Shown here piece by piece: positions 3,481-60,832 of a DNA stretch of 64,000 bases (position 1 is its first letter; each line of letters starts with the position of its first letter). Source of the stretch: a virus; IMG/VR virus record IMGVR_UViG_3300005613_000020, positions 32,885-96,884 of that record; one strand, written 5' to 3'. The position numbers and the translations under genes were made by a program. Below the pieces are notes generated by a model, which was given only the letters and a program-made list of their open reading frames with translations, did no database searches and was not told the DNA's origin.

Positions 3481-6111
3481 TTACGTATACTTATTCATAT
3501 CACTCGTATACCTATCTCCATCCTCGTCTTTATAGATTAATTCACAATCTTCAGAATCAGAATCCTCCCAAATTACAAGCTCTCCAGTACCAACCTGTCC
3601 GCTTGTGGGTCTACTAGATTGCCTGATATGTCTAATTTTGAACTTAGTATCGTAATAATGAAGATCAAAATCTGTTGCATCTACATAGCAATCTCCTGAA
3701 TCAACTTGCAGCCACATGTAATCCTCTGCATCAATCTTTACATAGCCGTTGCTTCCTATCAAAGTTAAGTTGTCATACGCTTCTATTTCTATATCCCCAG
3801 CTGTAGAATCAATAGTCATCAGGCCAGAGCAGTATTGCACAATGGTAGTACCGTGCATCTCCAATTCCCATCTAGCATAAAGGTCTATTGTTCCTCCTGT
3901 TCCACCTACCCAACCTATAGATTGCAATAATAAATTGTCTTTTGCTTTCACCTCAACATCATCATATTCAGAATATACTTGGATTCTTCCTGAACTATAC
4001 GGAGAGGCTGTAGTCGGACAAACTATATCGATATTTGCATCATCACGTCCATAAAGATATATCCCTCCGCTGCTTCCGTAAGCATCAAACCACAAATCCT
4101 TATCTGTCTCTCCCTTAAATCTAAGCTCACTAGCTGCTAATCCAGAGGTATATACGGAAGCTACTTTTGTGCTATCTTTGTAGAATTCTAGCCCTTCATC
4201 GTAACATCTAGCTTTTCCTGTGGAAGATATTAGTTCAAAGTATTTATCCGTAGCATTCTCGTAGCACTCAATTCCGCTAGAATCTAACTGTATTCTAGCT
4301 CCACCCGCAGTACCACAAACAATGGTTGTAGCAAGAACTAGACTACTTTCCAGATGATCAGCTTCAATGTTTCCTGCCTTAATATGTTCAGCTAAGACCA
4401 TATTGGCAGTCATGATTATTGCGTTTAGTATGGGATGTTTACCGTTTGATGGCAATACAAGTGCTTGCTCTGTAGCTGAAGGGGCCTGTTCGCATACTGC
4501 TAGTAGTACATGATCTGTTCCAATTGCTACAGCAAAATCTGAAGTTTGGCTTATTGTTACCTGGTCTCCATCAACCTTGCCTGAAATGTCTGTATAGAAA
4601 TACGAAATTGCAGTAGCTATAGCTGTTTCTCCATCCGATATCCAAAACTTGTCTCCGTCTGTAAAGACTATTGCATATCCGTCTCCTATTGTCCCATCTT
4701 GCCATTGAACAATATCGTTATTTGGTGCTCCAGTTCCTTTTATGTTAAATGTAAGCTGACATTGGTGAGGCTGAACAGCTTTATGAAGAACTCCTGTAGG
4801 AACCCCATCCGATCCGTAAGTATTGGCTATTTCTGTGATATCATCGGTAGTATCAACCATCTCCATAAATTTAGATGTAAGGTCTTGATTATCGCCGTCA
4901 AATCCGTAATCCTTCTCAACTAGAGAAATTGTTGATTGGAAACTCGGCTCAGAGTATATAATCTGAGTTACAATCATATCTGTGTTATCTACGCTAGAGA
5001 TAAGAGGAGAACCGCCTTGCTGTAGATGTATATGCACTAAACTCCCAGCAGTAAGAAAATAATCTACTGCGGATTTAGTGTAGACTGGATATCCATTTAC
5101 AGAAACCTTACCCTTCTGTGGAGCAGTTGTTTGTTCATATTGAGCAATCCATGAATCAGCAATTTCCTCTGCTTCGGTTGCATTTTGTGCCCCAGTTCCA
5201 GATAAATACTTGTGTCTCACAAATGCTATAGTATCTTCTAAGTCTCCTCCACCATCAGGGACCTTCTTTGAGAAGTCGTGATACATAGCGTCTTCTACGT
5301 ATGGTACATGAACTTCTGTGAATATTTCTTTCTGGTAAGTGGGAAACTGGTATCCCCCAATCATAGGCTTTTTCTGATCTGTTTCAGTCTCATTAAAAGC
5401 TATTGTCATACCATTTGTAGCTGCATCTCCAGAAGAAGCGTCTAAGGATTCATCGCTACACTTAGACCCACAATACTTTGTTCGATAGTAATAAACAGCC
5501 TCAGCAACATTCCCAGCTATTTGAGTGCCATTATTTACACGAAATACCCATCCGTATTTACCGCTTGCTGGGGTTCTCTCATCTTCGTTAGCTAGCATGT
5601 TTATTGCCTTCAATGCAGCTGTGCGTTTGCTTTCAAAACTAGGTGCTCCTCCTATGCTAGTTGTAGAGGACTCAATTTTAGTTACTCTAACGTTCCCTGT
5701 TTTTCCTCCATATACAAAATCGTCGATTATCTCTTCTATTACATCGGATATATCCACAGCCCCAGATCCAAGATCAGCAGTATAATCTACATTGCAAGAC
5801 TGTTCGCTCAACTCCATGGACATATCAAAACATTCAATTTCGATAATCTGACCAAGGGTGTCATCATGCTTGGGGTTAACGTATTGAATACGACCGAAGA
5901 AGAGGATTTCTTCAGTCTGTCGTTCGGTTAGACGAACGAAATACATTTCCTTATAACCAACTGTATCCTGACGTGTATTCCACGGATCACTTATCTTTAC
6001 AGTTAGCTGTCTTGGAGCATCAATAGGATCTCTATACTCAAGACCTATTATGTTGGTTTCTTCGTTCCAACTACCGTCGTAATATTCGAAGCGCGAAATA
6101 GGCAGTGACAT
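3481..6111 (-). CDS. Baseplate hub / tail tip (Tal-like) protein with C-terminal beta-helix spike-like region
   Basis: Position after TMP/Dit; hub-like N-terminus (LFFGRIQYV, IECFD); IKAGNIEADHL repeats; C-terminal G-x-I-x-I/L repeats. Confidence 0.75.
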   Translation of the reverse strand: MSLPISRFEYYDGSWNEETNIIGLEYRDPIDAPRQLTVKISDPWNTRQDTVGYKEMYFVRLTERQTEEILFFGRIQYVNPKHDDTLGQIIEIECFDMSMELSEQSCNVDYTADLGSGAVDISDVIEEIIDDFVYGGKTGNVRVTKIESSTTSIGGAPSFESKRTAALKAINMLANEDERTPASGKYGWVFRVNNGTQIAGNVAEAVYYYRTKYCGSKCSDESLDASSGDAATNGMTIAFNETETDQKKPMIGGYQFPTYQKEIFTEVHVPYVEDAMYHDFSKKVPDGGGDLEDTIAFVRHKYLSGTGAQNATEAEEIADSWIAQYEQTTAPQKGKVSVNGYPVYTKSAVDYFLTAGSLVHIHLQQGGSPLISSVDNTDMIVTQIIYSEPSFQSTISLVEKDYGFDGDNQDLTSKFMEMVDTTDDITEIANTYGSDGVPTGVLHKAVQPHQCQLTFNIKGTGAPNNDIVQWQDGTIGDGYAIVFTDGDKFWISDGETAIATAISYFYTDISGKVDGDQVTISQTSDFAVAIGTDHVLLAVCEQAPSATEQALVLPSNGKHPILNAIIMTANMVLAEHIKAGNIEADHLESSLVLATTIVCGTAGGARIQLDSSGIECYENATDKYFELISSTGKARCYDEGLEFYKDSTKVASVYTSGLAASELRFKGETDKDLWFDAYGSSGGIYLYGRDDANIDIVCPTTASPYSSGRIQVYSEYDDVEVKAKDNLLLQSIGWVGGTGGTIDLYARWELEMHGTTIVQYCSGLMTIDSTAGDIEIEAYDNLTLIGSNGYVKIDAEDYMWLQVDSGDCYVDATDFDLHYYDTKFKIRHIRQSSRPTSGQVGTGELVIWEDSDSEDCELIYKDEDGDRYTSDMNKYT

Positions 6112-6623
6112 TACTCTAAACTCCCGCTATGTAGTAACATATGGCATGATCTACACATCGTTACTAAATTATCTGTTTCTGAATTTAGCTTATTTCCATC
6201 TATGTGGTGAGCTACAATATATCTGTTCCAACCGCACAAAACACACTCAAATCCATCTCTCTCATAGACTTCTCTTTTAAGCTGCTTTGTAAATGTGTCC
6301 TTATAAGGATTCTTTGATATTCCGCCTTGCCAATTTGAATTCCTATTTCCCTTATGTGTTTCAGAAAGCCTTTTTCTAACTTCTGGTGTGTGAGTCTTTC
6401 CTAACATACCTCTTGGATGACCGTGCTCTTTCCAGTATTTAGATACCCTCTTTTTGAATGTTTCGGGATCAGCTACTTTCCTGTTCTTATATCCGCAAGC
6501 TTTACTGCAACATACGTTTCTTTTCCACTTTCGGCATACAAAAACCTTAGCACATATAGGGCAAATTCTAGCTTCTGTAGGATGTGCTCTCTTCTTATTA
6601 GCTATGGTTCTACCATCTACCAT
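6111..6623 (-). CDS. Free-standing HNH homing endonuclease (NUMOD3 + HNH)
   Basis: GKTHTPEVRKRLSE (NUMOD3), NWQGG, RDGFECVLCG, AHHIDGNKLN, NLVTMCRSCH. Confidence 0.9.
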   Translation of the reverse strand: MVDGRTIANKKRAHPTEARICPICAKVFVCRKWKRNVCCSKACGYKNRKVADPETFKKRVSKYWKEHGHPRGMLGKTHTPEVRKRLSETHKGNRNSNWQGGISKNPYKDTFTKQLKREVYERDGFECVLCGWNRYIVAHHIDGNKLNSETDNLVTMCRSCHMLLHSGSLE

Positions 6624-6635
6624 TGCTCTCCTACA

Positions 6636-7097
6636 CTATGTCCACGTTGTATCTGAATGCCAAGATCCGCTGTAATACGTATACGCTTTCTGGACAGTAA
6701 GCTCTAAGGTAAAATTACAGTGCTCATGAAATGGCTGGCGCTTTATATCTGCTCTAGAAATCTTGCCTTCTATATAGTTAACGTCGTCTAGATACAAGTA
6801 AATAGTCTCATCCCACCAATTCTTAAACTTAAGTACATCAATCCTATCAGCAATATACCCAGTACCTAAATGACCTGTATATGTAGTCGTATCTCTATCG
6901 AAATCACATACACCTACAAACTGGAATAACTGTATTGTTCTCCCCATATCTAGCTGAAAGACTTCTCCACCAGGGAGAGCAGTATTAATTACAGGCCTAG
7001 ATTGTCCCCAAGTATAGTCCTCCGCTTTAAGGTAATACCTTTCTGGAGTACCTGTTGGATCTTTTACAAGGCATACGCTAAGATCAGTATTGGCCAA
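6636..7097 (-). CDS. Distal tail protein (Dit-like)
   Basis: 153 aa beta-rich gene immediately after TMP; LPGG...DMG motif. Confidence 0.6.
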   Translation of the reverse strand: MANTDLSVCLVKDPTGTPERYYLKAEDYTWGQSRPVINTALPGGEVFQLDMGRTIQLFQFVGVCDFDRDTTTYTGHLGTGYIADRIDVLKFKNWWDETIYLYLDDVNYIEGKISRADIKRQPFHEHCNFTLELTVQKAYTYYSGSWHSDTTWT

Positions 7098-8319
7098 AAC
7101 GTACCTTCCTTAGATCAACTGCTAATTCTCTCTTAATTCCCTCAGAAATCCTAGAACCAACCTGATCAAGATCAATCATAGTATGTGCTGTAACAGTAAC
7201 AGGAGCTTGTATCAGCATGTTTCCAAGCTCACCCTTCATCATCTTTGCGTTTTCCGCTGCTGGAATAATCCTTTCTCCCTTGTGTACCATAGCAGGTCCT
7301 GTGTTTGGTACATACGGAGTACCCTTCTGGAACCAGTTACCTGGCCAAGCTTTCTTAAGTCCGCTAGTTACAGCTCCTCCTATATTCTTTCCTATATTTC
7401 CTACCTTACCTACAACGTTCTTTACAGAATTGAATATTTTTACTATGAAATTCTTAACTGTGGTAATCACAGTTTTGATTTTATTCATAGTATTTTTTAT
7501 GGTTCCCTTAAGGAAGTTCCATATTGATGTCATTACACCTTTGAGTTTTTCAAATACCTTACCGAATACTCCAAGAATGCGTTTGAGAACTCCCCCTATA
7601 AAATTCCATACTTTCTTCTGAATATCCCACAAGAAACCTAGAACTTTACCAACAAAGCTTAATGCCTCAAATATCTTTCCAACTATCCACTCAAATATCT
7701 TTCCTAAAAATCCACTTACTGCTTCTATTACTGGTCTAACAAACTCAAGGAACTTGCCAAGAACATTGCTCCAGAATTCAATAGCATATTCAATAAATGG
7801 CTGAACAAACTCAACAAATGCGTTAAGTAACCCCTCCATGGGTTTGTATAGCAAATTCAATAACTCTACGGCGAAATTCAAAAACGGCATAAGTACAGTA
7901 AGAAGCATACCAATGAGCTTCCCAAGAGGTGTTGCCCATGCCCTAAAGTTTTTAGTTAATATTTCTATTAATGGCCACAGCATTTGGAGGAGCGGTATTA
8001 ATATGGGGATAAGTGGCATTAGTAGAAGATCAACAGCAGCTGATAGTATATCGGTAAGAACCTTGAATGTAGTGGAAAATATAACTGATCCATGCAATGC
8101 TTTCATCACTGTACCGATGATTCCAGCAATCCCGAGAAACTTACCAGCCATCTTAGCGATTCCGCCGATACCCTTCTTCATGGATTTGGCGTCTTTCCTA
8201 GTCTCAGATCCGCCTATTCCAGAAATTCCTGCTCCTTGACCTGCTCCTACACCTTCAGCTCCCCCAGCTGACTGCATTAGAACATCAATACTTATAGTTC
8301 CGCTTACTTCATCTGCCAT
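7084..8319 (-). CDS. Tape measure protein (short, 411 aa)
   Basis: Follows tail chaperone; amphipathic W/F-periodic repeats; C-terminal FQKGTPYVPNTGPAMVHKGERIIPA motif typical of TMPs. Confidence 0.85.
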   Translation of the reverse strand: MADEVSGTISIDVLMQSAGGAEGVGAGQGAGISGIGGSETRKDAKSMKKGIGGIAKMAGKFLGIAGIIGTVMKALHGSVIFSTTFKVLTDILSAAVDLLLMPLIPILIPLLQMLWPLIEILTKNFRAWATPLGKLIGMLLTVLMPFLNFAVELLNLLYKPMEGLLNAFVEFVQPFIEYAIEFWSNVLGKFLEFVRPVIEAVSGFLGKIFEWIVGKIFEALSFVGKVLGFLWDIQKKVWNFIGGVLKRILGVFGKVFEKLKGVMTSIWNFLKGTIKNTMNKIKTVITTVKNFIVKIFNSVKNVVGKVGNIGKNIGGAVTSGLKKAWPGNWFQKGTPYVPNTGPAMVHKGERIIPAAENAKMMKGELGNMLIQAPVTVTAHTMIDLDQVGSRISEGIKRELAVDLRKVRFGQY

Positions 8320-53724: not shown

Positions 53725-54219
53725 CTAGTAACTCCTATCGACCAAACTTCTCATGTACTCAGCTAAGCACAAAGCATCAAAACAATGTTGACTTTGTTTC
53801 TTTAGCAATATTTCCCAATCCAAATCATATTTCGTAATAGCATATCTTTTGATTATGTCTTTGTCAACTCTAGCTGTACCTAAAATAGCTTTCTTCCATA
53901 CCAGATTCTGAACTGATTCATACTGTATTTTGCTGTCATGCAGATGCTTACAAACAAGCGCGTCAACTTCGCTCAACATCATAGTTGTCTTAGGATTCTG
54001 TATCATGACCGGAGCTTCTACTCCTATCAAACCAAGCTCTCCGTACTGTTTTACGAATGCTGGAAGACAAGCAATCCACTCATCAATCATCTTGAATATC
54101 CTCATTTGCCAATATTTCTCTTTCTTATCTCCTACAATCTGAAGGAAATGGGGGATCTCTCCGTCTAGCACTACAAGAGATAGCTGTTTTGAATCTACGT
54201 CAATACCACCATGTAGCAT
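53725..54219 (-). CDS. RuvC-like Holliday junction resolvase
   Basis: GIDVDS, GVEAP, WKKAILG, DALCLA. Confidence 0.75.
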   Translation of the reverse strand: MLHGGIDVDSKQLSLVVLDGEIPHFLQIVGDKKEKYWQMRIFKMIDEWIACLPAFVKQYGELGLIGVEAPVMIQNPKTTMMLSEVDALVCKHLHDSKIQYESVQNLVWKKAILGTARVDKDIIKRYAITKYDLDWEILLKKQSQHCFDALCLAEYMRSLVDRSY

Positions 54220-54748
54220 CTTCGATTACTCTCCTTACAGCTTCCCCTGCTTCTTTGTACCTTTCCTCTGGCGAACCTCTCAAGATGACCACTTCATCTT
54301 CTACATTTGCGACATACTCTTCTATCGCGCACTCTACTATCAACCTCTCTACTTCATCTAGTCTCCTAGCTCCGTTATCTATCATAGGTATATCTTCTAT
54401 CATAGTCCATAGAGCTAAGTTATATCGGTAACTTCCTAGTACTTTCTCTACGTCTTCTAATAAGTCTGGTCTGTTCAGCTTTGTGTAAATGATGGAATGA
54501 TATAAATGAGAATCAGTAACTAGACCAATATTTCCGGATGCTCCAGCCATATTAGATGTATAATCTTCATAAAACTTCTGTCTCTTTGTGATTTCTAATT
54601 GGTCTATATCTTTTCCTATTTCCATCCCACGGGCTATACAATCAGCGGCATACTCATGAACATACCTTAAAGGAAAATCCTCTACTAATAGCTTCGCTAT
54701 TGTTGTCTTCCCTGTACACGGGGCTCCTATCATTGCTATTCTAATCAC
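54200..54748 (-). CDS. P-loop kinase/ATPase (NadR/AAA_28-like)
   Basis: GAPCTGKTT, EYA, DNGAR, GSPEER; start moved to GTG 54748. Confidence 0.75.
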   Translation of the reverse strand: MIRIAMIGAPCTGKTTIAKLLVEDFPLRYVHEYAADCIARGMEIGKDIDQLEITKRQKFYEDYTSNMAGASGNIGLVTDSHLYHSIIYTKLNRPDLLEDVEKVLGSYRYNLALWTMIEDIPMIDNGARRLDEVERLIVECAIEEYVANVEDEVVILRGSPEERYKEAGEAVRRVIEDATWWY

Positions 54749-54758
54749 TTTATCTCTA

Positions 54759-54828
54759 TTATACCGGCTGAAGTCAGCCGCTTTGCTACCTTTCTCCTGC
54801 AAATTCGTAGTGGAATGATTTGTTATAT
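54759..54828 (-). mobile_element. attC-like site 3 (degenerate)
   Basis: ATATAAC 3 nt after stop of 54832 ORF; AAATCATTCCA...TTTGC/GCAAA...GCGGCTGACTTCAGCC-GGTATAA. Confidence 0.5.
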
Positions 54829-54831
54829 AAA

Positions 54832-55047
54832 TTACTCCTTTTCAGCCAGATCTAGTATATCAAAATATTTGAGTTCACCAGACTGGTCTATACGATATAG
54901 CGCCGCTTCACTAGGATGTGTATCAAGGTATTTTGATACCTTCCAGTGGTCACGGACAGCTTGGCGAAACTTGTCATCCGTACCTCCTAGGCGAACTGCG
55001 TCACATATAGAAAGACCCCATCTTTCCCACTCTGGTGGATTATTCAT
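54832..55047 (-). CDS. Small hypothetical protein (putative cassette gene)
   Basis: GAGG SD; flanked by attC-like sites. Confidence 0.65.
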   Translation of the reverse strand: MNNPPEWERWGLSICDAVRLGGTDDKFRQAVRDHWKVSKYLDTHPSEAALYRIDQSGELKYFDILDLAEKE

Positions 55048-55064
55048 TCAACACCTCTAAAGCC

Positions 55065-55119
55065 ACATAAGGTCAAATTAACCCTCCGCTTGCGGTCGGA
55101 CTTCAATTAGTTTTTATGG
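55065..55119 (-). mobile_element. attC-like site 2 (degenerate)
   Basis: CCATAAA-AACT-AATTGAA...CCGCAAGCGG...TTAATT-TGAC-CTTATGT; L boxes pair with one extrahelical base. Confidence 0.55.
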
Positions 55120-55313
55120 AAAAGGGGCAATTGTGAGCTTCGCCTTTACATAAGTCTGGTCTTACATATCCCTAGCCAATTTGGGATGACAGCCTATACT
55201 GTCTAGGATTTTCCCCTCGCTCAGTATCACAGGCGGATACAACTTTCTCTAGACATCACCCTATCGATGTTGGCATCCTGTGATCTCCTCATCCTATGCC
55301 CCTTTCTCCATAA
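55114..55313 (-). ncRNA. Candidate structured non-coding RNA (ORF-less cassette)
   Basis: 16-17 nt terminal inverted repeat and several internal stems; no substantial ORF. Strand assumed from surrounding genes. Confidence 0.5.
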
Positions 55314-55347
55314 CGTTTAAGTTCAGCCGCCATTCTTATTGTTATAT
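55308..55347 (-). mobile_element. attC-like site 1 (left arm shortened)
   Basis: ATATAAC at stop of 55347 ORF...GGCGGCTGAACTTAAAC-GTTATGG. Confidence 0.5.
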
Positions 55348-55583
55348 TATACCTTATTTTCAATTACATATCCTAAAAAATCTGCTATCCCATACCCAGA
55401 TTTACAACTGGAATGGGGTTCTATTATTCTTGGTGGCATTCCAATATTAAGTCTTGCTAATTTATTCTCTGACCCAAGGGAAATATATACCAAACACGTT
55501 TTAGCTATATCCTCGCATGTTTCTCCGCTTGTATATACTTCTCCGCATAACCTACATTTATATTTAAATTTAGCTATTTTCAT
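55347..55583 (-). CDS. Small Zn-binding hypothetical protein
   Basis: YKCRLCG...HxxC..GYGIADFLG. Confidence 0.7.
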   Translation of the reverse strand: MKIAKFKYKCRLCGEVYTSGETCEDIAKTCLVYISLGSENKLARLNIGMPPRIIEPHSSCKSGYGIADFLGYVIENKV

Positions 55584-56054
55584 CTACATATTCCTCTCTT
55601 CTACTACTACCTGTCTTCTAGACAACTCTCTAGATAGTGCTACTATTTGTAATTCGTATATCTTAGAAAATCTATCCATCATTGAAACTTCAGCTCCCAT
55701 CCTATCCATCAACGATTTAAGAGTAAATAAGTCTGGATTTGCCGCATAAGCTTCGGATAACAACGCATTTTGGGTCTTTGACTTCTTCTCTAGTGGAACT
55801 GATGTCTTTCTCAACTCGTCTTCATATAAAGACTTTACTCCAGTATATCTTGTCTCTGCTATTGCTAGCTGGTACATAACATATCCTCTATACGCTGTTA
55901 ACTTCATCATGTATTTTCCAAGATCATCAATACTAAGAATAGTAGGATCTGTCGGAAAATCTATCTCTTCCCCAAATTCCTTTGGTCGCTTAAGGTTAAT
56001 TGCTGATTTATGAGCTTCTATAATATCATCAAATGGATATCCTACATCAGACAT
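55584..56054 (-). CDS. Coiled-coil protein, possible UvsY-like recombination mediator
   Basis: Helical; ends ALSRELSRR; near RecA and exonuclease. Confidence 0.55.
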   Translation of the reverse strand: MSDVGYPFDDIIEAHKSAINLKRPKEFGEEIDFPTDPTILSIDDLGKYMMKLTAYRGYVMYQLAIAETRYTGVKSLYEDELRKTSVPLEKKSKTQNALLSEAYAANPDLFTLKSLMDRMGAEVSMMDRFSKIYELQIVALSRELSRRQVVVEERNM

Positions 56055-56916
56055 TCGGCATTACCACCTTTCCAATACTAGCCCTCTCACAAGCACTTGA
56101 ATAGTAACATCTGCTTATTGTACATGGACTACACTTTGTTGGAATTTGACCAGACTTTATGCACTTCAGTACATAATTCATCTTCTTGAATATCTTGTCT
56201 AACAACTTCTTACTTTCGTATCTACCCCCCTCTGAAGACTCTGAAATAACATTTCCTTCATCGTCAAGTGTAACCAAAAAATATAAGTCGCCCTGATTAT
56301 CCTTACACTCATAAATCAACCATCCTTCTTTCATCTCTAGTGCATACATATACAAAACTAGTTGTTCTAAGTGCTCTTGTTTTGGACCGTCTTTTCTGAT
56401 AGATCTGTATCCATTTGCGTTTATTGATTTGATTTCTCCTACATATAGAATCCCATCTATATCAATAATTGAATCAAGTCTTCCTTTCATAGGTGGATTG
56501 TCTATTGAAACCTGCTTCTCTGATGATGTTTGTAAACCAGCTTCTTCCATCTCTGTCTGTAACCTCTCATGAACATAATCACCGTTTTCCATCCTAGTAA
56601 GTCCTAGAACATCTGGGGGTCCAGTAAGATTCAGAGACATCAAATAGAGTACCCTAGCCTGATACCCACAAGCACTAGCTGCAAAGTACTTGAATTCGCT
56701 AGCCTTTCTAACTGGTCTTGTCCTTTTCTTTATCTTCTTCTCTCTATACTTGTGAATTGCATCTTTCAAAATAGTTGCTCTTCCTACTATCTCTTTATCA
56801 TCTATTTCTTTTTTTACGCCCTTTGGCTTTGATTTCTTTCTCATGATAGACGGTTTTATTTTCATTGTAGTAGGCTTTTTCTTGTACGTCTGTAGCAATC
56901 CAGTCAACTCGTTCAT
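56047..56916 (-). CDS. Cas4-like PD-(D/E)XK exonuclease
   Basis: GDYVHE, GRLD, EIKS, QLVLYM, C-terminal Cys cluster. Confidence 0.8.
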   Translation of the reverse strand: MNELTGLLQTYKKKPTTMKIKPSIMRKKSKPKGVKKEIDDKEIVGRATILKDAIHKYREKKIKKRTRPVRKASEFKYFAASACGYQARVLYLMSLNLTGPPDVLGLTRMENGDYVHERLQTEMEEAGLQTSSEKQVSIDNPPMKGRLDSIIDIDGILYVGEIKSINANGYRSIRKDGPKQEHLEQLVLYMYALEMKEGWLIYECKDNQGDLYFLVTLDDEGNVISESSEGGRYESKKLLDKIFKKMNYVLKCIKSGQIPTKCSPCTISRCYYSSACERASIGKVVMPNV

Positions 56917-57260
56917 AGTACCCCCTTAGTTCTAGGCATAAATCCGCCTCTTCTTACTTCAGCCGACTCATACCAATGCTCTATAAATCCTAATATCTTC
57001 TGTGTCACTTCTTCCTTGTTCTTCATCTCGGTATCGTATATTCGTAGTATGGGTATGTTGTACTTCTGCATTATGAAATTATCTCTTTTTCTATCTCGAC
57101 CCTTCATATGAGTAACCTTTGAATCAGCTTCAAATCCTATGTGACAATCATACTCATAACAGTCTAGAGAATAGGGCTCTACCTGAACCTCAGTCTCTAC
57201 CATCAATCCTATTTCATTCAGTATCTCTACAAGCTTCTTGTGATTCTTTGATATCATCAT
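56913..57260 (-). CDS. Vsr/DUF559-like endonuclease
   Basis: YSLDCY, EAD...H, DRKRD, ILRI. Confidence 0.75.
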   Translation of the reverse strand: MMISKNHKKLVEILNEIGLMVETEVQVEPYSLDCYEYDCHIGFEADSKVTHMKGRDRKRDNFIMQKYNIPILRIYDTEMKNKEEVTQKILGFIEHWYESAEVRRGGFMPRTKGVL

Positions 57261-58228
57261 TCTGATTCGGCTACCTCTTTTGACAATTTCTTGAAACTCT
57301 TTTCGTTGTCTAGAAAGTAATCCTCTACGGCTTGTCTTCCAAGCATCTTTCCGTTTGGAAAATCCTCAAACTGATAGTATGGACCCTTCTGAGTTATGAT
57401 ACCTAGATCAATAGCTCGTAGTATCGTCGATAGTATCAGATCCAACTTACCAGAAAACAGAAATGGTATCTCTGTCATAAGCTGAGGTCTATGAGTCTTA
57501 TTCTTCTCTGTAAACATCCTCATGTGGAATCCTAGCTTGTTCTTGTCTTTGTCCTTGATAAACGGACCCTTACTAACCCACAAAATGATTCCCGCAAAAT
57601 GTCTAAGACCTCTACCTCCAGGTTGGTTCTTTCCAGTCATTCCAGCCCACATTCCTATAGAATCTCTTTGCTGGTTTATCAGAAGTACGATGGTATCTCC
57701 TGTTATTTCTTGGGTTATCTTCCTAAGACCTTGATTTATCAACCTTGCCTGAGTACCTACCTGCTTCTGCTCCATATCAGCATCTTTCTCAGATAGTGGT
57801 AGAAGACCCGCTAAACTATCTACAACAACTAATCCAGTTCGTGCCTTTATCAACTCAACAGCTACATCAATTGCTTCTTCTCCAGATGATGTATCTGAAT
57901 AAATAAGATTTTCTGTATCTACTCCTATATTATTAGCCCACACAGGATCAAATGAATGCTCTACATCTATCAATGCTGTGGTCAATCCTGCTCTCTGAGC
58001 AGATGCTATTACTAACTGTGACAGGAATGACTTTCCTCCTGATTCCTCTCCAGAGAAACACGTTATTCGTCTAAAAGGCAATCCTCCACCAAGTATTTCA
58101 TCAAGAGGAGGAACCTCTGTTCTAAGACGCTTTATGATAAGTTCTTCGTCTGATCCTGCCATCATCCTAGCTGATTTAACAGCCTTAGAAACATGATTCA
58201 TTATGTCTTGCATATCGCTATCTGTCAT
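57257..58228 (-). CDS. recA: RecA recombinase
   Basis: LGGGLP, GEESGGKS, IDVEH, VVVDSLA, QARL, INQQR, PGGRGLRH; start taken at MTDSD. Confidence 0.92.
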   Translation of the reverse strand: MTDSDMQDIMNHVSKAVKSARMMAGSDEELIIKRLRTEVPPLDEILGGGLPFRRITCFSGEESGGKSFLSQLVIASAQRAGLTTALIDVEHSFDPVWANNIGVDTENLIYSDTSSGEEAIDVAVELIKARTGLVVVDSLAGLLPLSEKDADMEQKQVGTQARLINQGLRKITQEITGDTIVLLINQQRDSIGMWAGMTGKNQPGGRGLRHFAGIILWVSKGPFIKDKDKNKLGFHMRMFTEKNKTHRPQLMTEIPFLFSGKLDLILSTILRAIDLGIITQKGPYYQFEDFPNGKMLGRQAVEDYFLDNEKSFKKLSKEVAESE

Positions 58229-58460
58229 TTGCCATTTCCTCTTTCGCCTTGGCGATAGCTGCGCGAGCAATATGCACCATTCCTTCTGGATTAGTATAGT
58301 CAGGCTTATTTGTTATCTGCTCCAATGCCTTAACCAGCTCATTTATGAGAGATTGCTTCTCTTCACACCATTGGCAATATGGGATACTATCTTGGTCCAT
58401 CATTGAATCAAACATGCTATGTTTCATAAATCCTCCTAATCTGCCTTCTTTCCTACCCAT
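58218..58460 (-). CDS. Small hypothetical protein
   Basis: GGAGG before MKHSM; ARAAIAKAK motif. Confidence 0.6.
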   Translation of the reverse strand: MGRKEGRLGGFMKHSMFDSMMDQDSIPYCQWCEEKQSLINELVKALEQITNKPDYTNPEGMVHIARAAIAKAKEEMANDR

Positions 58461-60832
58461 CTTTGATCAACCTCTACATCAGGATTAAGCACGAGTCCGT
58501 CCAATTCCTTGATAGGCTTCTTCATTTCAGACAGTATGATCTCTTTTGCTTCCTCTACGCAATCATCTGACACTTCAGCTAAGATAGCATCATGATGTGT
58601 AAACAACACATTAGCGTCCATATTTTTAAACCGATTATCTATATCAATCAACGAAAAATGTAATTTGTCTGAAGTACTTCCTTGAACCCTAGCATTAACT
58701 GCTTGTCTAAGCATTTCCCTAACTTGTGGCATCTTCATATTTGCGTTATCAGGAAAATCAAAATGTCTCCTTCTTCCAAAACAATTCTCTACATACGTAT
58801 TTTGTAAGCAATACATCCTAGTCTCATTAATCCATTGACTGTACTTACGAAACTCCAAAAAGTAGTTCCTTATAATATCCTTAGCCTCTTGTACGCTACA
58901 TTTCAACTCGTCAGATAATCCAAATTCTGTCATACCATACGCGATACCGAAGTTTACTTTCTTTGCTCTTCTTCTATACTCTGGATCTGCTACCTCTCGT
59001 TTCTTCTTTTCATCCCAGTGAGTTGGTGAATTCAAAACTGTTCTAGCAACTACATCATGCAAGTCTTCTGATACAGCTTCCTTGAATACCTCATCATTTG
59101 AGTAATATGCAGCTACCCACAATTCCGCCTGAGAGTAATCAGCAGCTATTATCTTGTATCCAGGAGGTGCAAAAATAAGACCTCTCATAAATTCCGTGTC
59201 AGGCATGTTCTGCAAGGTAGGATCTCCATAAGTAACCCTTCCTGTAGTTGCTCCATTAATACGCGCTATAGGATGAACTCTATTGTTGGAATCTAGAAAC
59301 TGATACAATCCTGTTGTGTCATCTCCTAAGAAGGATAGCTCTTTTTCTTTTTTCTTGAAAGCCTTCAAGTCAACTATCATTAAATGTTCTATACTATCTT
59401 TCTTTGTTCTACTAAGAAGCTCTGTTAGCACATCTGATGTTACCTGCGGAACCCCCTTTGGTGTCTTGCTTATTACTGGAAGACCCATATCTGAAAATAA
59501 CTCCTTACTAAGTTGCGACGTAGACCTAATATTAATATCAGGATCTTCCATACGTTCTTTTATTACAGACTCTAACTCCAAATTTTCCTGTACTGTCATC
59601 TCATATGCTTCTTCTAGCCTATCTGTATCAATCAGTACTCCACGTAGCTCTGCTTCTAGAAACACTCTTATCAATGGTTCAGTAAACTTCCAATAGAACT
59701 TGTCTAAACCTTCTAACGCTACCTGCCTATACATCTCCCTACCAACCCTACTTGTAGCATCTACATCTCTTGCAAGATAACTCCACAATAAATCAGGATC
59801 AACTGTTGAAAATCCAAACTTCTTCTCGTTCCTTGGTATCTTGTCAGTAAAATCATCCTTGTATGGAGTCATGTTCGTGTACTTCTTTGTTGCAAAGTCT
59901 AAACTGTGTGGTTCGTCCTCATGAACCAAGTGATGTAATAGACTCGTATCTAAAATTCTTCCTTTAAGTTCAAACCCAAACTTGTGTTTTAGGAACCTCA
60001 TATCAAACTTTATATTTGCGCCAATCCATGTATACTCATTACTAAATATTCTTTCTAAACCGTCCATTATTGTTTTTGTGTCTTCTTCGTTCCATGTTTG
60101 GCAACAATGCTTACCAAGTAATGGAACTACGTACCCTGTTCTTGGCTTTGGAGAAAATCCAATCGCTAAAACTTCACTAGTAATCCAACTAAATCCTGAT
60201 GTTTCTAAGTCAACAGATACTATCTTTGTGCTATCTAGCTGTTCTTCTATCCATTGAATGTCATCAGGAAATATAACTTTGTAGTCTGTGTCTTCAGCCT
60301 CTCGTTCTCCGTTCACATATACAGCTGCGCTATTAAAATCGTCTAGTGCTTTGCCGTACAACTTCTGATCTCTCAATATTGCCGCCGGGTGTATCGTTGA
60401 AATTAGTGGTACATCAGGAAATTCAGACCAAGACTCTTGTAGTCCGTGCTTCTTTGTTATACCTCCCTCAATTCCAGTAGAAGCATAAAAAGCATAGTTA
60501 CCAAGAGATATTATCACCTTTGGGTTAAGCCCCTCAATCTTCTTCTTGACGTTATCCATGCAGCAATCAACGTATGGGTAATCGGCCTTTTTCGACTTTG
60601 GCCGACACCCCAATACGTTTACTATATAACAATCATCTCGTGAAAGACCAGCCTTCTCTAGTATCTCGTGCAACAAGTGTCCAGCCCTTCCTATGAATGG
60701 AACTCCTTCTTTCTCCTCATTATATCCAGGACTCTCACCAAGTATGAGGATAGGAGCATTTACATCTCCATGTCCAGGCATGTTGTTTATGTTCGATTCA
60801 GTATTAAGCGGACACTTAAAGCACTTTGACAT
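58436..60832 (-). CDS. polA: Family A DNA polymerase with N-terminal family-4 uracil-DNA glycosylase domain and 3'-5' exonuclease
   Basis: CxxC, GESPG, PFIGRAG, CRP, HPAA (UDG4); DLET, NIKFD, YLARD (exo); DYSQAE, AKKVNFGIAYG, HD (Pol motifs A, B, C). Confidence 0.95.
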   Translation of the reverse strand: MSKCFKCPLNTESNINNMPGHGDVNAPILILGESPGYNEEKEGVPFIGRAGHLLHEILEKAGLSRDDCYIVNVLGCRPKSKKADYPYVDCCMDNVKKKIEGLNPKVIISLGNYAFYASTGIEGGITKKHGLQESWSEFPDVPLISTIHPAAILRDQKLYGKALDDFNSAAVYVNGEREAEDTDYKVIFPDDIQWIEEQLDSTKIVSVDLETSGFSWITSEVLAIGFSPKPRTGYVVPLLGKHCCQTWNEEDTKTIMDGLERIFSNEYTWIGANIKFDMRFLKHKFGFELKGRILDTSLLHHLVHEDEPHSLDFATKKYTNMTPYKDDFTDKIPRNEKKFGFSTVDPDLLWSYLARDVDATSRVGREMYRQVALEGLDKFYWKFTEPLIRVFLEAELRGVLIDTDRLEEAYEMTVQENLELESVIKERMEDPDINIRSTSQLSKELFSDMGLPVISKTPKGVPQVTSDVLTELLSRTKKDSIEHLMIVDLKAFKKKEKELSFLGDDTTGLYQFLDSNNRVHPIARINGATTGRVTYGDPTLQNMPDTEFMRGLIFAPPGYKIIAADYSQAELWVAAYYSNDEVFKEAVSEDLHDVVARTVLNSPTHWDEKKKREVADPEYRRRAKKVNFGIAYGMTEFGLSDELKCSVQEAKDIIRNYFLEFRKYSQWINETRMYCLQNTYVENCFGRRRHFDFPDNANMKMPQVREMLRQAVNARVQGSTSDKLHFSLIDIDNRFKNMDANVLFTHHDAILAEVSDDCVEEAKEIILSEMKKPIKELDGLVLNPDVEVDQRWVGKKAD

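What the first reader, a model, noticed from the sequence alone, without database searches (positions are those of the whole stretch)
54759..55583. Degenerate integron-like attC array (CALIN-like) embedded in a phage replication module
Seen: three elements on the minus strand at 55308-55347, 55065-55119 and 54759-54828. Each begins with a TAAC-like box (ATATAAC, CCATAAA, ATATAAC); two of these sit right at a stop codon. Each ends with a GCGG...TT...GTTAT-like arm (GTTATGG, CTTATGT, GGTATAA). Site 2 has AATT(G)AA/TTAATT boxes with one unpaired base around a CCGC-AA-GCGG hairpin. They separate two small unknown ORFs and one ORF-less unit. Known: attC sites are RYYYAAC...GTTRRRY imperfect palindromes with extrahelical bases. 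No integrase is in the window. Inference: the phage acquired accessory units through a host integron integrase, and the sites are now decaying.
Basis: partly seen in the sequence, partly recalled or inferred. Interest (0 to 1): 0.7.

Follow-up and report, generated by a model that had tools for sequence, protein, structure and literature searches.

The report
Decayed integron attC sites in phage
Three short sequences between small genes in a phage's replication region are most likely worn-out integron recombination sites (attC). The same phage carries three well-scoring attC sites next to two DNA methylase genes elsewhere, so it has taken up integron gene cassettes, something already reported for a few phages.

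Summary
The three elements are at the stated coordinates. A covariance model I built from 150 bacterial attC sites ranks exactly these three, all on the minus strand, as the best attC-like stretches in 54500-55800. Their scores are only 9.0, 7.3 and 3.6 bits, against about 25-78 bits for real attCs, and they do not fold as attC hairpins. By the usual criteria they are not functional attC sites.

They are still not chance:
- The L'-R' half of site 1 is the best match in the whole 96.9-kb genome to a profile of bacterial attC 3' halves (15.8 bits). The maximum was 10.7 in 200 simulated genomes and 5.5 in 109 kb of related phage DNA.
- Both half-sites of site 3 co-occur in the right order. No such pair occurred in 200 simulated genomes.
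- Outside the window, the same genome holds three attCs that score like the bacterial ones (56.7, 38.5 and 32.8 bits). They follow an N6/N4 methylase, a C5 methylase and an 88-aa ORF.
- The well-scoring site attC_B and sites 1 and 3 share the R'' box ATATAAC, which none of the 150 bacterial sites has.
- The genome encodes no tyrosine recombinase.

Site 2 is the weakest, and p78 may be a backbone gene. CALINs in phages, including methylase cassettes, were published in 2023, so this is a new member of a known kind. The added observation is a second, decayed array.

The parts
55347..55583 (-). p78, a small Cys-rich protein. Its stop codon abuts site 1. It is possibly a backbone gene rather than a cassette.
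   Evidence: ORF listed. Matches phrog_16725 at E 1.3e-7. Its look-alikes are about 81-aa viral proteins. One homologue at 61% identity, P0002. No GTT junction upstream; its start overlaps the p156 stop.
55308..55347 (-). Site 1, an attC relic: R'' ATATAAC, spacer, L'' lost, then L' CGGCTGAAC, spacer TTAAAC and R' GTTATGG.
   Evidence: R2 score 9.0 bits, the best in 54500-55800. The 3' half scores 15.8 bits, the best in the genome; simulated maximum 10.7. It parallels the well-scoring site attC_B, ATATAAC...CCGCTGAAC TCAAC GTTATGC. ssDNA fold -1.2/-1.6 kcal/mol, z about 0.
55114..55313 (-). ORF-less unit between sites 1 and 2. It folds into a multi-stem structure closed by a helix of about 16 bp, TTATGGAGAAAGGGGCA / TTGCCCCTTTTCCATAA. 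The two ends of this helix are the R' tail of site 1 and the R'' of site 2.
   Evidence: No ORF longer than 29 codons in any frame. RNA fold z -4.0 on the minus strand and -3.9 on the plus strand. GC 0.46 against about 0.38 nearby. No Rfam match. Inverted repeat I7.
55065..55119 (-). Site 2, the weakest attC-like relic: CCATAAA, AACTA, ATT(G)AAGTCCGAC, CGCAAGCGG, AGGGTTAAT, TTGAC, CTTATGT. Both crossover triplets are mutated (AAC to AAA, GTT to CTT).
   Evidence: R2 score 7.3 bits, second best locally. No half-site profile hit. ssDNA fold no better than shuffles. The outer bases of its R'' (CCA) are the complement of site 1's R' (TGG).
54832..55047 (-). p71, a small protein of unknown function that lies between sites 2 and 3 like a cassette ORF.
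   Evidence: ORF listed. No Pfam or PHROG match. One homologue at 75% identity, P0004, whose read-through tail back-translates to the 5' half of an attC.
54759..54828 (-). Site 3, an attC relic: R'' ATATAAC, spacer AAATC, start of L'' ATTCCA, a degenerate middle, L'-like GCGGCTGA and a degenerate R' GGTATAA.
   Evidence: R2 score 3.6 bits. 5' half 3.8 bits and 3' half 4.4 bits, in order on one strand; 0 such pairs in 200 simulated genomes. It shares the 15-mer TAACAAATCATTCCA, in register, with four attCs of a chromosomal integron array, L142.
54200..54745 (-). AAA_28 P-loop kinase-like gene downstream of site 3. The probable start is GTG at 54745, giving MIRIAMIGAPCTGKT.
   Evidence: Pfam AAA_28 at E 1.5e-17. 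No attC-like site follows it; it overlaps the RuvC-like gene.

Best explanation
Sites 1 and 3, and probably site 2, are mutational relics of integron attC recombination sites. They bound former gene cassettes: the ORF-less unit, p71 and possibly p78. These cassettes sit in the phage's replication and recombination gene block.

The cassettes came from an integron cassette pool. One route is a host integron integrase acting in trans on folded single-stranded attC DNA during infection. The other is capture of a piece of an existing array. The phage encodes no integrase, so nothing maintains the sites. The L'' arm of site 1 is lost. The AAC/GTT crossover triplets of site 2 and the GTT of site 3 are mutated. 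None of the three can fold into the recombinogenic hairpin, so the units are now fixed parts of the genome.

Shown: sequence relatedness to attC, better-scoring attCs of the same subtype elsewhere in this genome, and absence of an integrase. Inferred: the recombination events themselves, their order, and any present function of the units.
For: 1. Models R1 and R2 were built only from bacterial integron arrays. R1 recovers 152 attCs at E<=0.01, all but one on the array strand, including sites with GC as low as 0.38. R2 picks exactly the three reported intervals, minus strand, among its four best local hits.
2. The L'-R' half of site 1 scores 15.8 bits, the top hit in the 96.9-kb genome and above the well-scoring sites' own halves. 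The maximum was 10.7 in 200 simulated genomes and 5.5 in 109 kb of related phage DNA.
3. Site 3 has 5' and 3' half-site hits in the correct order and on the correct strand. No such pair occurred in 200 simulated genomes. It shares a 15-mer, in register, with four attCs of array L142.
4. The same genome has attCs at L144:4759-4813 (56.7 bits, E 1.5e-10), 6252-6299 (38.5 bits) and 4484-4543 (32.8 bits). All are on the minus strand, each after an ORF. Each cassette's R'' matches the R' at its own upstream boundary: GTTATAT with ATATAAC 7/7, GTTATGC with GCATAAC 7/7, GTTGGGC with GACCAAC 6/7.
5. The R'' box ATATAAC occurs in 0 of 150 bacterial attCs but in attC_B, site 1 and site 3.
6. Junction logic in the finding: the outer bases of site 1's R' (TGG) pair 3/3 with site 2's R'' (CCA). 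For site 2 to site 3 the match is 2/3.
7. No integron integrase and no tyrosine recombinase were found in the complete genome.
8. The tail of P0004...PHNQSFKTD..., can be encoded by xCAYAAY CARTC NTTYAARACNGAY. That is an R''-spacer-L'' matching the attC consensus, placed directly after the p71 homologue. This is inference by back-translation.
9. CALINs with methylase cassettes are documented in phages (PMC9892861).
Against: - None of the three sites reaches even the weakest genuine attC score (about 25 bits). The 9.0-bit hit ties for third among 8 chance-level hits in the window. From the CM E-values alone, a cluster like this is expected about 0.4 times per window (my estimate).
- ssDNA folds are no better than shuffles for sites 1 and 2.
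- Site 2 has no half-site signal, and its R'' overlaps the closing helix of the multi-stem unit, which could explain the complementarity by itself.
- p78 is a member of a viral protein family and lacks an upstream GTT junction.
- p78 and p71 were not found in 1.56 Mb of integron-array loci. Each has a single homologue among 5.8 billion proteins.
- The syntenic relative L009 has different genes here and no attC.
- The tests on sites 1 and 3 were chosen after seeing the sequences.
Confidence: 0.7

Rival explanations
1. The relics are of attC origin, but no integrase ever acted on the phage genome. A fragment of a cassette array, from the host chromosome or another phage, was captured en bloc by illegitimate or homologous recombination and then decayed.
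For: Site 1 is a full-length relic lying directly after p78, a phage-family gene with no upstream G|TT junction. Insertion of a cassette at a secondary site would leave only GTTRRRY on that side. Qi et al. propose off-target homologous or illegitimate recombination for phage CALINs. Junction logic is inherited from the source array, so it cannot distinguish the two routes.
Against: The well-scoring array starts at a bare GTTATAT (L144:7103) that matches the R'' of its first cassette 7/7. No scoring attC lies upstream of it. That is what integrase-mediated insertion at a secondary site produces. Two separate arrays of one attC subtype suggest repeated site-specific events.
Confidence: 0.3
2. 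The sites are chance AT-rich motifs together with ordinary intergenic signals (hairpins, ribosome-binding sites, -10-like boxes). There is no integron ancestry in this region.
For: CM scores of 9.0, 7.3 and 3.6 bits are at chance level in the window. There is no significant ssDNA folding for sites 1 and 2. ATATAACAA with one mismatch is not enriched in the window. GGTATAAT in site 3 looks like a -10 box.
Against: The 3' half of site 1 scores 15.8 bits, against a simulated maximum of 10.7 and a natural-phage maximum of 5.5. The paired halves of site 3 gave 0 pairs in 200 simulations. Well-scoring attCs with the same rare R'' box exist in this genome. All three sites lie on the coding strand, just after stop codons or between units.
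Confidence: 0.1
3. The middle unit (55114-55313) is an independent element: a small structured RNA gene or a MITE-like insert with 16-17-bp terminal inverted repeats. The 'R' of site 1' and the 'R'' of site 2' are simply its ends. Site 2 is then its terminator-like hairpin, CCGCAAGCGG followed by TTAATTT.
For: The fold z-score is -4.0 and the closing helix extends about 10 bp beyond the 6-7 nt that cassette logic requires. GC is raised. AAAC lies on both flanks. Site 2 has no half-site signal.
Against: There is no second copy in the genome, no Rfam family and no homologue on which to test covariation. The plus strand folds equally well. The L'-R' half of site 1 lies outside the helix and is independently significant. 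The two readings are compatible, because ORF-less cassettes exist.
Confidence: 0.2

Closest known systems
CALINs (clusters of attC sites lacking an integron integrase) in phage genomes: Qi, Rajabal, Ghaly, Tetu and Gillings 2023, Front Microbiol 14:1091391 (PMC9892861)
   Same: attC sites sit in a phage genome with no integrase. The cassettes are co-oriented with the attCs, which lie downstream of the ORFs. DNA methyltransferase cassettes of the N6_N4_Mtase type are present, as in the five methylase cassettes reported there. In this genome that describes the array at L144:4484-7103.
   Different: The array in the finding itself is decayed. No site passes an attC model or folds, so a standard scan would not call it a CALIN. 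It lies in the replication/recombination block and includes an ORF-less, strongly folding unit. A higher-scoring array and a decayed array of the same attC subtype in one phage were not described in the parts of that paper I read.
Canonical integron attC sites (59-base elements) of mobile and sedentary chromosomal integrons
   Same: Order of R'', 5-nt spacer, L'', variable region, L', spacer, R'. Sequence similarity to the consensus GCCTAAC AATTC GTTCAAGCCGAC ... GGCTTAAC TCAGGC GTTAGGC. Position just after the ORF stop codon. Each cassette's R'' is complementary to the R' at its own upstream boundary.
   Different: Site 1 has lost L''. Site 2 has AAA/CTT instead of AAC/GTT. Site 3 has GGT instead of GTT and a degenerate middle. 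None has a stable hairpin. The R'' variant ATATAAC was absent from the 150 bacterial sites.
Cassettes fixed at secondary sites or by loss of their attC (integrase-mediated insertion at GWT-type secondary sites; from my own knowledge of the integron literature, not checked here)
   Same: A cassette that lacks a functional flanking site can no longer be excised and becomes a permanent gene. The bare GTTATAT at the start of the well-scoring array fits insertion at a secondary site.
   Different: Here the loss is by gradual mutation of complete sites, in a virus rather than a plasmid or chromosome.

Membership tests
Functional integron attC site | R'' box RYYYAAC and R' box GTTRRRY, with conserved AAC/GTT crossover triplets | tested here: not met
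   Site 1 keeps both triplets (ATATAAC / GTTATGG). Site 2 has AAA / CTT. Site 3 has AAC / GGT. So only 1 of 3 sites keeps both triplets.
Functional integron attC site | L''/L' pairing with extrahelical bases, and a stable folded single strand | tested here: not met
   ssDNA MFE: site 1 -1.2/-1.6 kcal/mol, site 2 -3.1/-2.5 kcal/mol, z about 0. Site 3 has only an internal hairpin. The phage's own attC_A and attC_B fold at about -10 kcal/mol, z -2.4 to -4.3.
Functional integron attC site | Score above threshold with an attC covariance model | tested here: not met
   R2 gives 9.0, 7.3 and 3.6 bits. With R1, genuine sites score about 25-78 bits. These are my own models, not IntegronFinder's.
Functional integron attC site | Recombination by an integron integrase | not testable with these tools
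   This needs an attC x attI suicide-conjugation assay like the one in PMC9892861.
attC-derived relic (homology to attC, function lost) | Sequence similarity to attC half-sites beyond chance | tested here: met
   Site 1, 3' half: 15.8 bits, against a simulated maximum of 10.7. Site 3: paired halves, 0 such pairs in 200 simulations. Site 2: not met on its own.
attC-derived relic (homology to attC, function lost) | Cassette-like placement: same strand as the ORFs, directly after stop codons, with junction complementarity between neighbouring sites | tested here: met
   All sites are on the minus strand. Site 1 starts in the p78 stop codon and site 3 starts 3 nt after the p71 stop. Outer R-box bases match 3/3 from site 1 to site 2 and 2/3 from site 2 to site 3.
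CALIN (at least 2 attC sites within 4 kb, no integrase nearby) | At least two attC sites that pass the model threshold | tested here: not met
   Not met for 54759-55583. Met for the separate array at L144:4484-6299, which has three sites with E from 1.5e-10 to 2.5e-5.
Complete integron | An integron integrase gene (intI) next to the array | tested here: not met
   TIGR02249 and PF00589 give no match in the complete 96.9-kb genome.
Known RNA families (Rfam 15), for the ORF-less unit | Match to a curated covariance model | tested here: not met
   No hit at gathering thresholds in the window. At E<=10 only two chance-level hits, neither in the unit's body.

The most novel reading that the evidence does not exclude
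Large lytic-type phages repeatedly sample the host's integron cassette pool, using host integrase in trans, and then fix useful cassettes by letting their attC sites decay. This genome would show both stages: a recent methylase array and an old, eroded array whose ORF-less cassette has become a structured RNA in the replication module. Decayed attC footprints would then be a general, so far uncounted, marker of integron-to-phage gene flow.
Probability: 0.25. Interest if true: 0.65.

Novelty: new member of a known kind. Interest (0 to 1): 0.5.

Why it matters
Integron cassettes in phages were reported only recently and are counted only when the attC sites are intact. This genome suggests that phages can also keep cassettes after the recombination sites erode. 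Threshold-based scans would then underestimate gene flow from integrons to phages. It also gives a concrete pair to compare experimentally: three well-scoring attC sites flanking two orphan DNA methylases, which are plausible anti-restriction cargo, and three dead sites in the replication block. Finally, the attC subtype could help to identify the unknown host.

Tried and rejected
- Rfam over the whole window and, with relaxed thresholds, over 54500-55800: nothing relevant. No tRNAs.
- Promoter and terminator scan: no enrichment, no terminators.
- GCGGCTGA is over-represented, with 4 copies, but two of them appear to lie inside coding sequence. ATATAACAA with one mismatch is not enriched.
- Phage database (INPHARED), distant blastn with 2.9 kb: no match.
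- Relatives in IMG/VR:
  - Cas4-like and RecA queries found only distant phages. L009, with RecA at 48% identity, is syntenic but has other genes between p156 and RuvC, and no attC.
  - AAA_28, p78 and the p71 alignment found nothing.
- The single metagenome scan returned one spurious contig, L012.
The contigs encoding the only close homologues, P0002 and P0004, therefore could not be fetched, and the cassette-precise presence/absence test could not be run.
- Recoding or a broken gene in the 300-nt gap: rejected, because all six frames are full of stops.
- The 16-base attC-subtype pattern in IMG/VR gave 39 loci, roughly the number expected by chance. Eleven of them carry attCs, mostly as long GC-rich arrays, and none is related to this phage.
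- tblastn of p78, p71, p88 and p155 against 1.56 Mb of integron loci: no hits. Only the two methylases have relatives there.
- blastn of the region against those loci and against the rest of the genome: only the short attC-half matches.
- Protein-atlas look-ups gave no function for p71, and only viral hypothetical proteins for p78.

Full report
**Setting.** The window is bases 32885-96884 of a 96.9-kb IMG/VR virus record with direct terminal repeats, rated 100% complete. Around the finding, all genes run on the minus strand and form a replication/recombination block:
- PolA (58436-60832)
- RecA-like (57257-58270)
- a 115-aa ORF
- a Cas4-like PD-(D/E)XK nuclease (56047-56916)
- p156 (55584-56054)
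- p78 (55347-55583)
- an ORF-less gap of about 300 nt
- p71 (54832-55047)
- an AAA_28 P-loop protein, probable GTG start at 54745
- a RuvC-like protein
- a class II ribonucleotide reductase

**Observation.** As single-stranded DNA they are unconvincing. Site 1 folds at -1.2 kcal/mol (z -0.08) and site 2 at -3.1 kcal/mol (z +0.12), and for site 2 the predicted fold is not the proposed structure. Site 3 shows only an internal 6-bp hairpin, with no pairing of its ends. Rfam finds nothing here.

**Building a test.** IntegronFinder's model was not available, so I built attC models from bacterial data only.
1. IntI1 from plasmid R100 was used to fetch 80 integron loci from bacterial genomes.
2. The integron-integrase family TIGR02249 located chromosomal integrons in a sample of 401 genomes. 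I took 8 kb of array from 20 of them. None of the four genomes flagged as unpublished (G041, G143, G298, G310) was used for any claim.
3. A palindrome scan picked canonical sites. Twenty-five short ones were aligned (A4) and, with a hand-set R-box/L-box structure, gave model R1.
4. Positive control: R1 finds 152 sites at E<=0.01 in 41 array loci, all but one on the expected strand. Most were not in the training set. They are 50-136 nt long, with GC down to 0.38.
5. The 150 best were aligned to the model (A5) and gave model R2.

**Result in the window.**
- With filters off, neither model finds a significant attC in the 64-kb window. The best hits, at 11-13.6 bits, are trivial short palindromes.
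- On 54500-55800, the three reported intervals are among R2's four best hits, all on the minus strand: 55308-55347 (9.0 bits), 55065-55119 (7.3 bits) and 54759-54828 (3.6 bits). A 17-nt palindrome at 55192-55208 (3.7 bits) ranks third.
- From the E-values, I estimate that such a cluster is expected about 0.4 times per window. The covariance model alone therefore does not reject chance.

**Half-site profiles.** Decay destroys pairing before it destroys sequence. I therefore built two sequence profiles from A5, one for R''-spacer-L'' and one for L'-spacer-R', and scanned the whole genome.
- The best 3'-half hit in the genome is site 1 (55330-55310, 15.8 bits, E 0.002).
- In 200 first-order Markov genomes the maximum was 10.7. 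In 109 kb of related phage DNA it was 5.5.
- Site 3 has the fifth-best 3' half (4.4 bits) and the sixth-best 5' half (3.8 bits). They lie on the same strand, in the right order, 29 nt apart. No such pair occurred in 200 simulated genomes.
- The 5' half of site 3 shares the 15-mer TAACAAATCATTCCA, in register, with four attCs of one chromosomal array, L142.
- Site 2 gives no half-site hit.

**The same scan exposed well-scoring attCs outside the window.** R2 confirms three sites on the minus strand of L144 (genome 1-20000):
- attC_A, 4759-4813: 56.7 bits, E 1.5e-10
- attC_B, 6252-6299: 38.5 bits, E 1.4e-6
- attC_C, 4484-4543: 32.8 bits, E 2.5e-5

They follow, in order, an N6_N4 DNA methylase (7072-6266), a C5 cytosine methylase (6209-4773) and an 88-aa ORF (4764-4498).

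attC_A and attC_B fold at about -10 kcal/mol with canonical extrahelical bases, and attC_C is weaker.

The hallmark of cassette-by-cassette assembly is present. Each cassette's R'' is the complement of the R' at its own upstream boundary, not of the R' next to it:
- GTTATAT (7103) with ATATAAC of attC_B: 7/7
- GTTATGC with GCATAAC of attC_A: 7/7
- GTTGGGC with GACCAAC of attC_C: 6/7

The array begins at a bare GTTATAT with no scoring attC before it. That is what insertion at a secondary site would leave.

The genome has no integron integrase and no other tyrosine recombinase.

**Linking the two regions.**
- attC_B reads ATATAAC CAACC GTTTCAGCGGAC AAG CCGCTGAAC TCAAC GTTATGC. Site 1 reads ATATAAC AATAA GAATGG CGGCTGAAC TTAAAC GTTATGG. 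This is the same site type with the L'' arm lost.
- The R'' box ATATAAC occurs in none of the 150 bacterial sites, but in attC_B, site 1 and site 3.
- In the finding region, the outer R' bases of site 1 (TGG) are matched 3/3 by site 2's R'' (CCA). From site 2 to site 3 the match is 2/3.
- Across the terminal repeat the two arrays are about 13 kb apart, within the same minus-strand early gene block.

**A relative.** Each small ORF has a single homologue among 5.8 billion proteins. P0004 is 75% identical to p71 and runs on past the p71 stop codon as ...QDQPHNQSFKTDREDTAADRSDGRLL. The segment HNQSFKTD can be encoded by CAYAAY CARTC NTTYAARACNGAY. That fits an attC R''-spacer-L'' (consensus CTAAC AATTC GTTCAAGCCGAC) at the position where the window has the decayed ATATAAC AAATC ATTCCACTACGAA. 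This is inference by back-translation.

**What argues for caution.**
- No site passes an attC model, and none folds.
- Site 2 depends on context. Its R'' is also one strand of the 16-bp helix that closes a strongly folding 200-nt unit at 55114-55313 (z -4.0 on the minus strand, -3.9 on the plus strand; GC 0.46 against 0.38 nearby). That helix extends about 10 bp beyond what cassette logic needs. The unit may therefore be a structured RNA or a small inverted-repeat element in its own right.
- p78 belongs to a viral protein family (phrog_16725; look-alikes are viral). Its start overlaps the p156 stop, with no GTT junction, so it may be a backbone gene.
- The only syntenic relative, L009 (RecA 48% identical), has unrelated genes between p156 and RuvC and no attC. 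This shows the region is variable, but L009 is too distant to test for precise junctions.
- p78 and p71 do not occur in the 1.56 Mb of array loci I held.

**Mechanism.** The most likely history is as follows. Cassettes of integron origin entered the phage genome, either through a host integron integrase acting in trans on folded attC strands or through capture of an array fragment. With no integrase in the phage, the sites drifted. Loss of the L'' arm and of the AAC/GTT triplets now makes excision impossible, so the units are fixed. The left array, with its two orphan DNA methylases, looks recent and plausibly protects phage DNA from restriction. The array in the finding looks old. Homology to attC and the absence of an integrase are shown. 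The recombination events, their timing and the present roles of p71, p78 and the ORF-less unit are inferred.

**Comparison with what is known.** Qi et al. [quoted passage not shown] They also showed that five of six tested phage attCs recombine with attI1 under IntI1. The left array here is a further example of that kind. The finding adds a decayed second array in a replication module, which threshold-based scans would miss. I therefore rate it a new member of a known kind, of moderate interest.

Noticed in passing
L144:4484-7103 (genome coordinates 4484-7103, outside the window), minus strand: A well-scoring three-site attC cluster (CALIN). It starts at a bare GTTATAT and continues as N6_N4 methylase, attC_B, C5 cytosine methylase, attC_A, 88-aa ORF, attC_C and a 155-aa ORF. 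Junctions follow cassette logic (7/7, 7/7, 6/7). The genome has no integrase.
   Followed up: yes
window 55114-55313: An ORF-less 200-nt unit folds into a multi-branched structure closed by a helix of about 16 bp (z -4.0), with GC raised to 0.46. It contains a 21-codon mini-ORF behind a strong GGAGAAAGGGG ribosome-binding site, which is itself one strand of the closing helix. No Rfam match and no homologues.
   Followed up: partly
protein P0004 (95 aa; Logan contig of 4995 nt, not fetched): The only homologue of p71 reads through the stop position into a tail that back-translates to the 5' half of a canonical attC. This suggests a less decayed site in that relative.
   Followed up: partly
L175, L171, L163, L165, L154, L183, L151, L152, L169 (IMG/VR contigs): These 'viral' contigs carry long GC-rich attC arrays, up to 15 sites within the 2.8-13 kb fetched for each. 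They may be phages with CALINs, or provirus calls that include part of a host chromosomal integron.
   Followed up: no
L144:7545-9992, minus strand: An 815-aa replicative-helicase-like ORF appears to be interrupted by an intein-like insert (my reading of the translation). This fits the earlier notes of several inteins in this genome.
   Followed up: no
L009:11106-12302: In the syntenic relative, the RuvC-like domain sits at the C-terminus of a 398-aa ORF. Its unexplained N-terminal part of about 230 aa lies where the window has p71 and the AAA_28 gene.
   Followed up: no
window 54745-54802: The mechanical 200-aa ORF with a TTG start at 54802 runs through site 3. The P-loop N-terminus MIRIAMIGAPCTGKT points to the GTG at 54745 as the real start of the AAA_28 gene.
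   Followed up: partly
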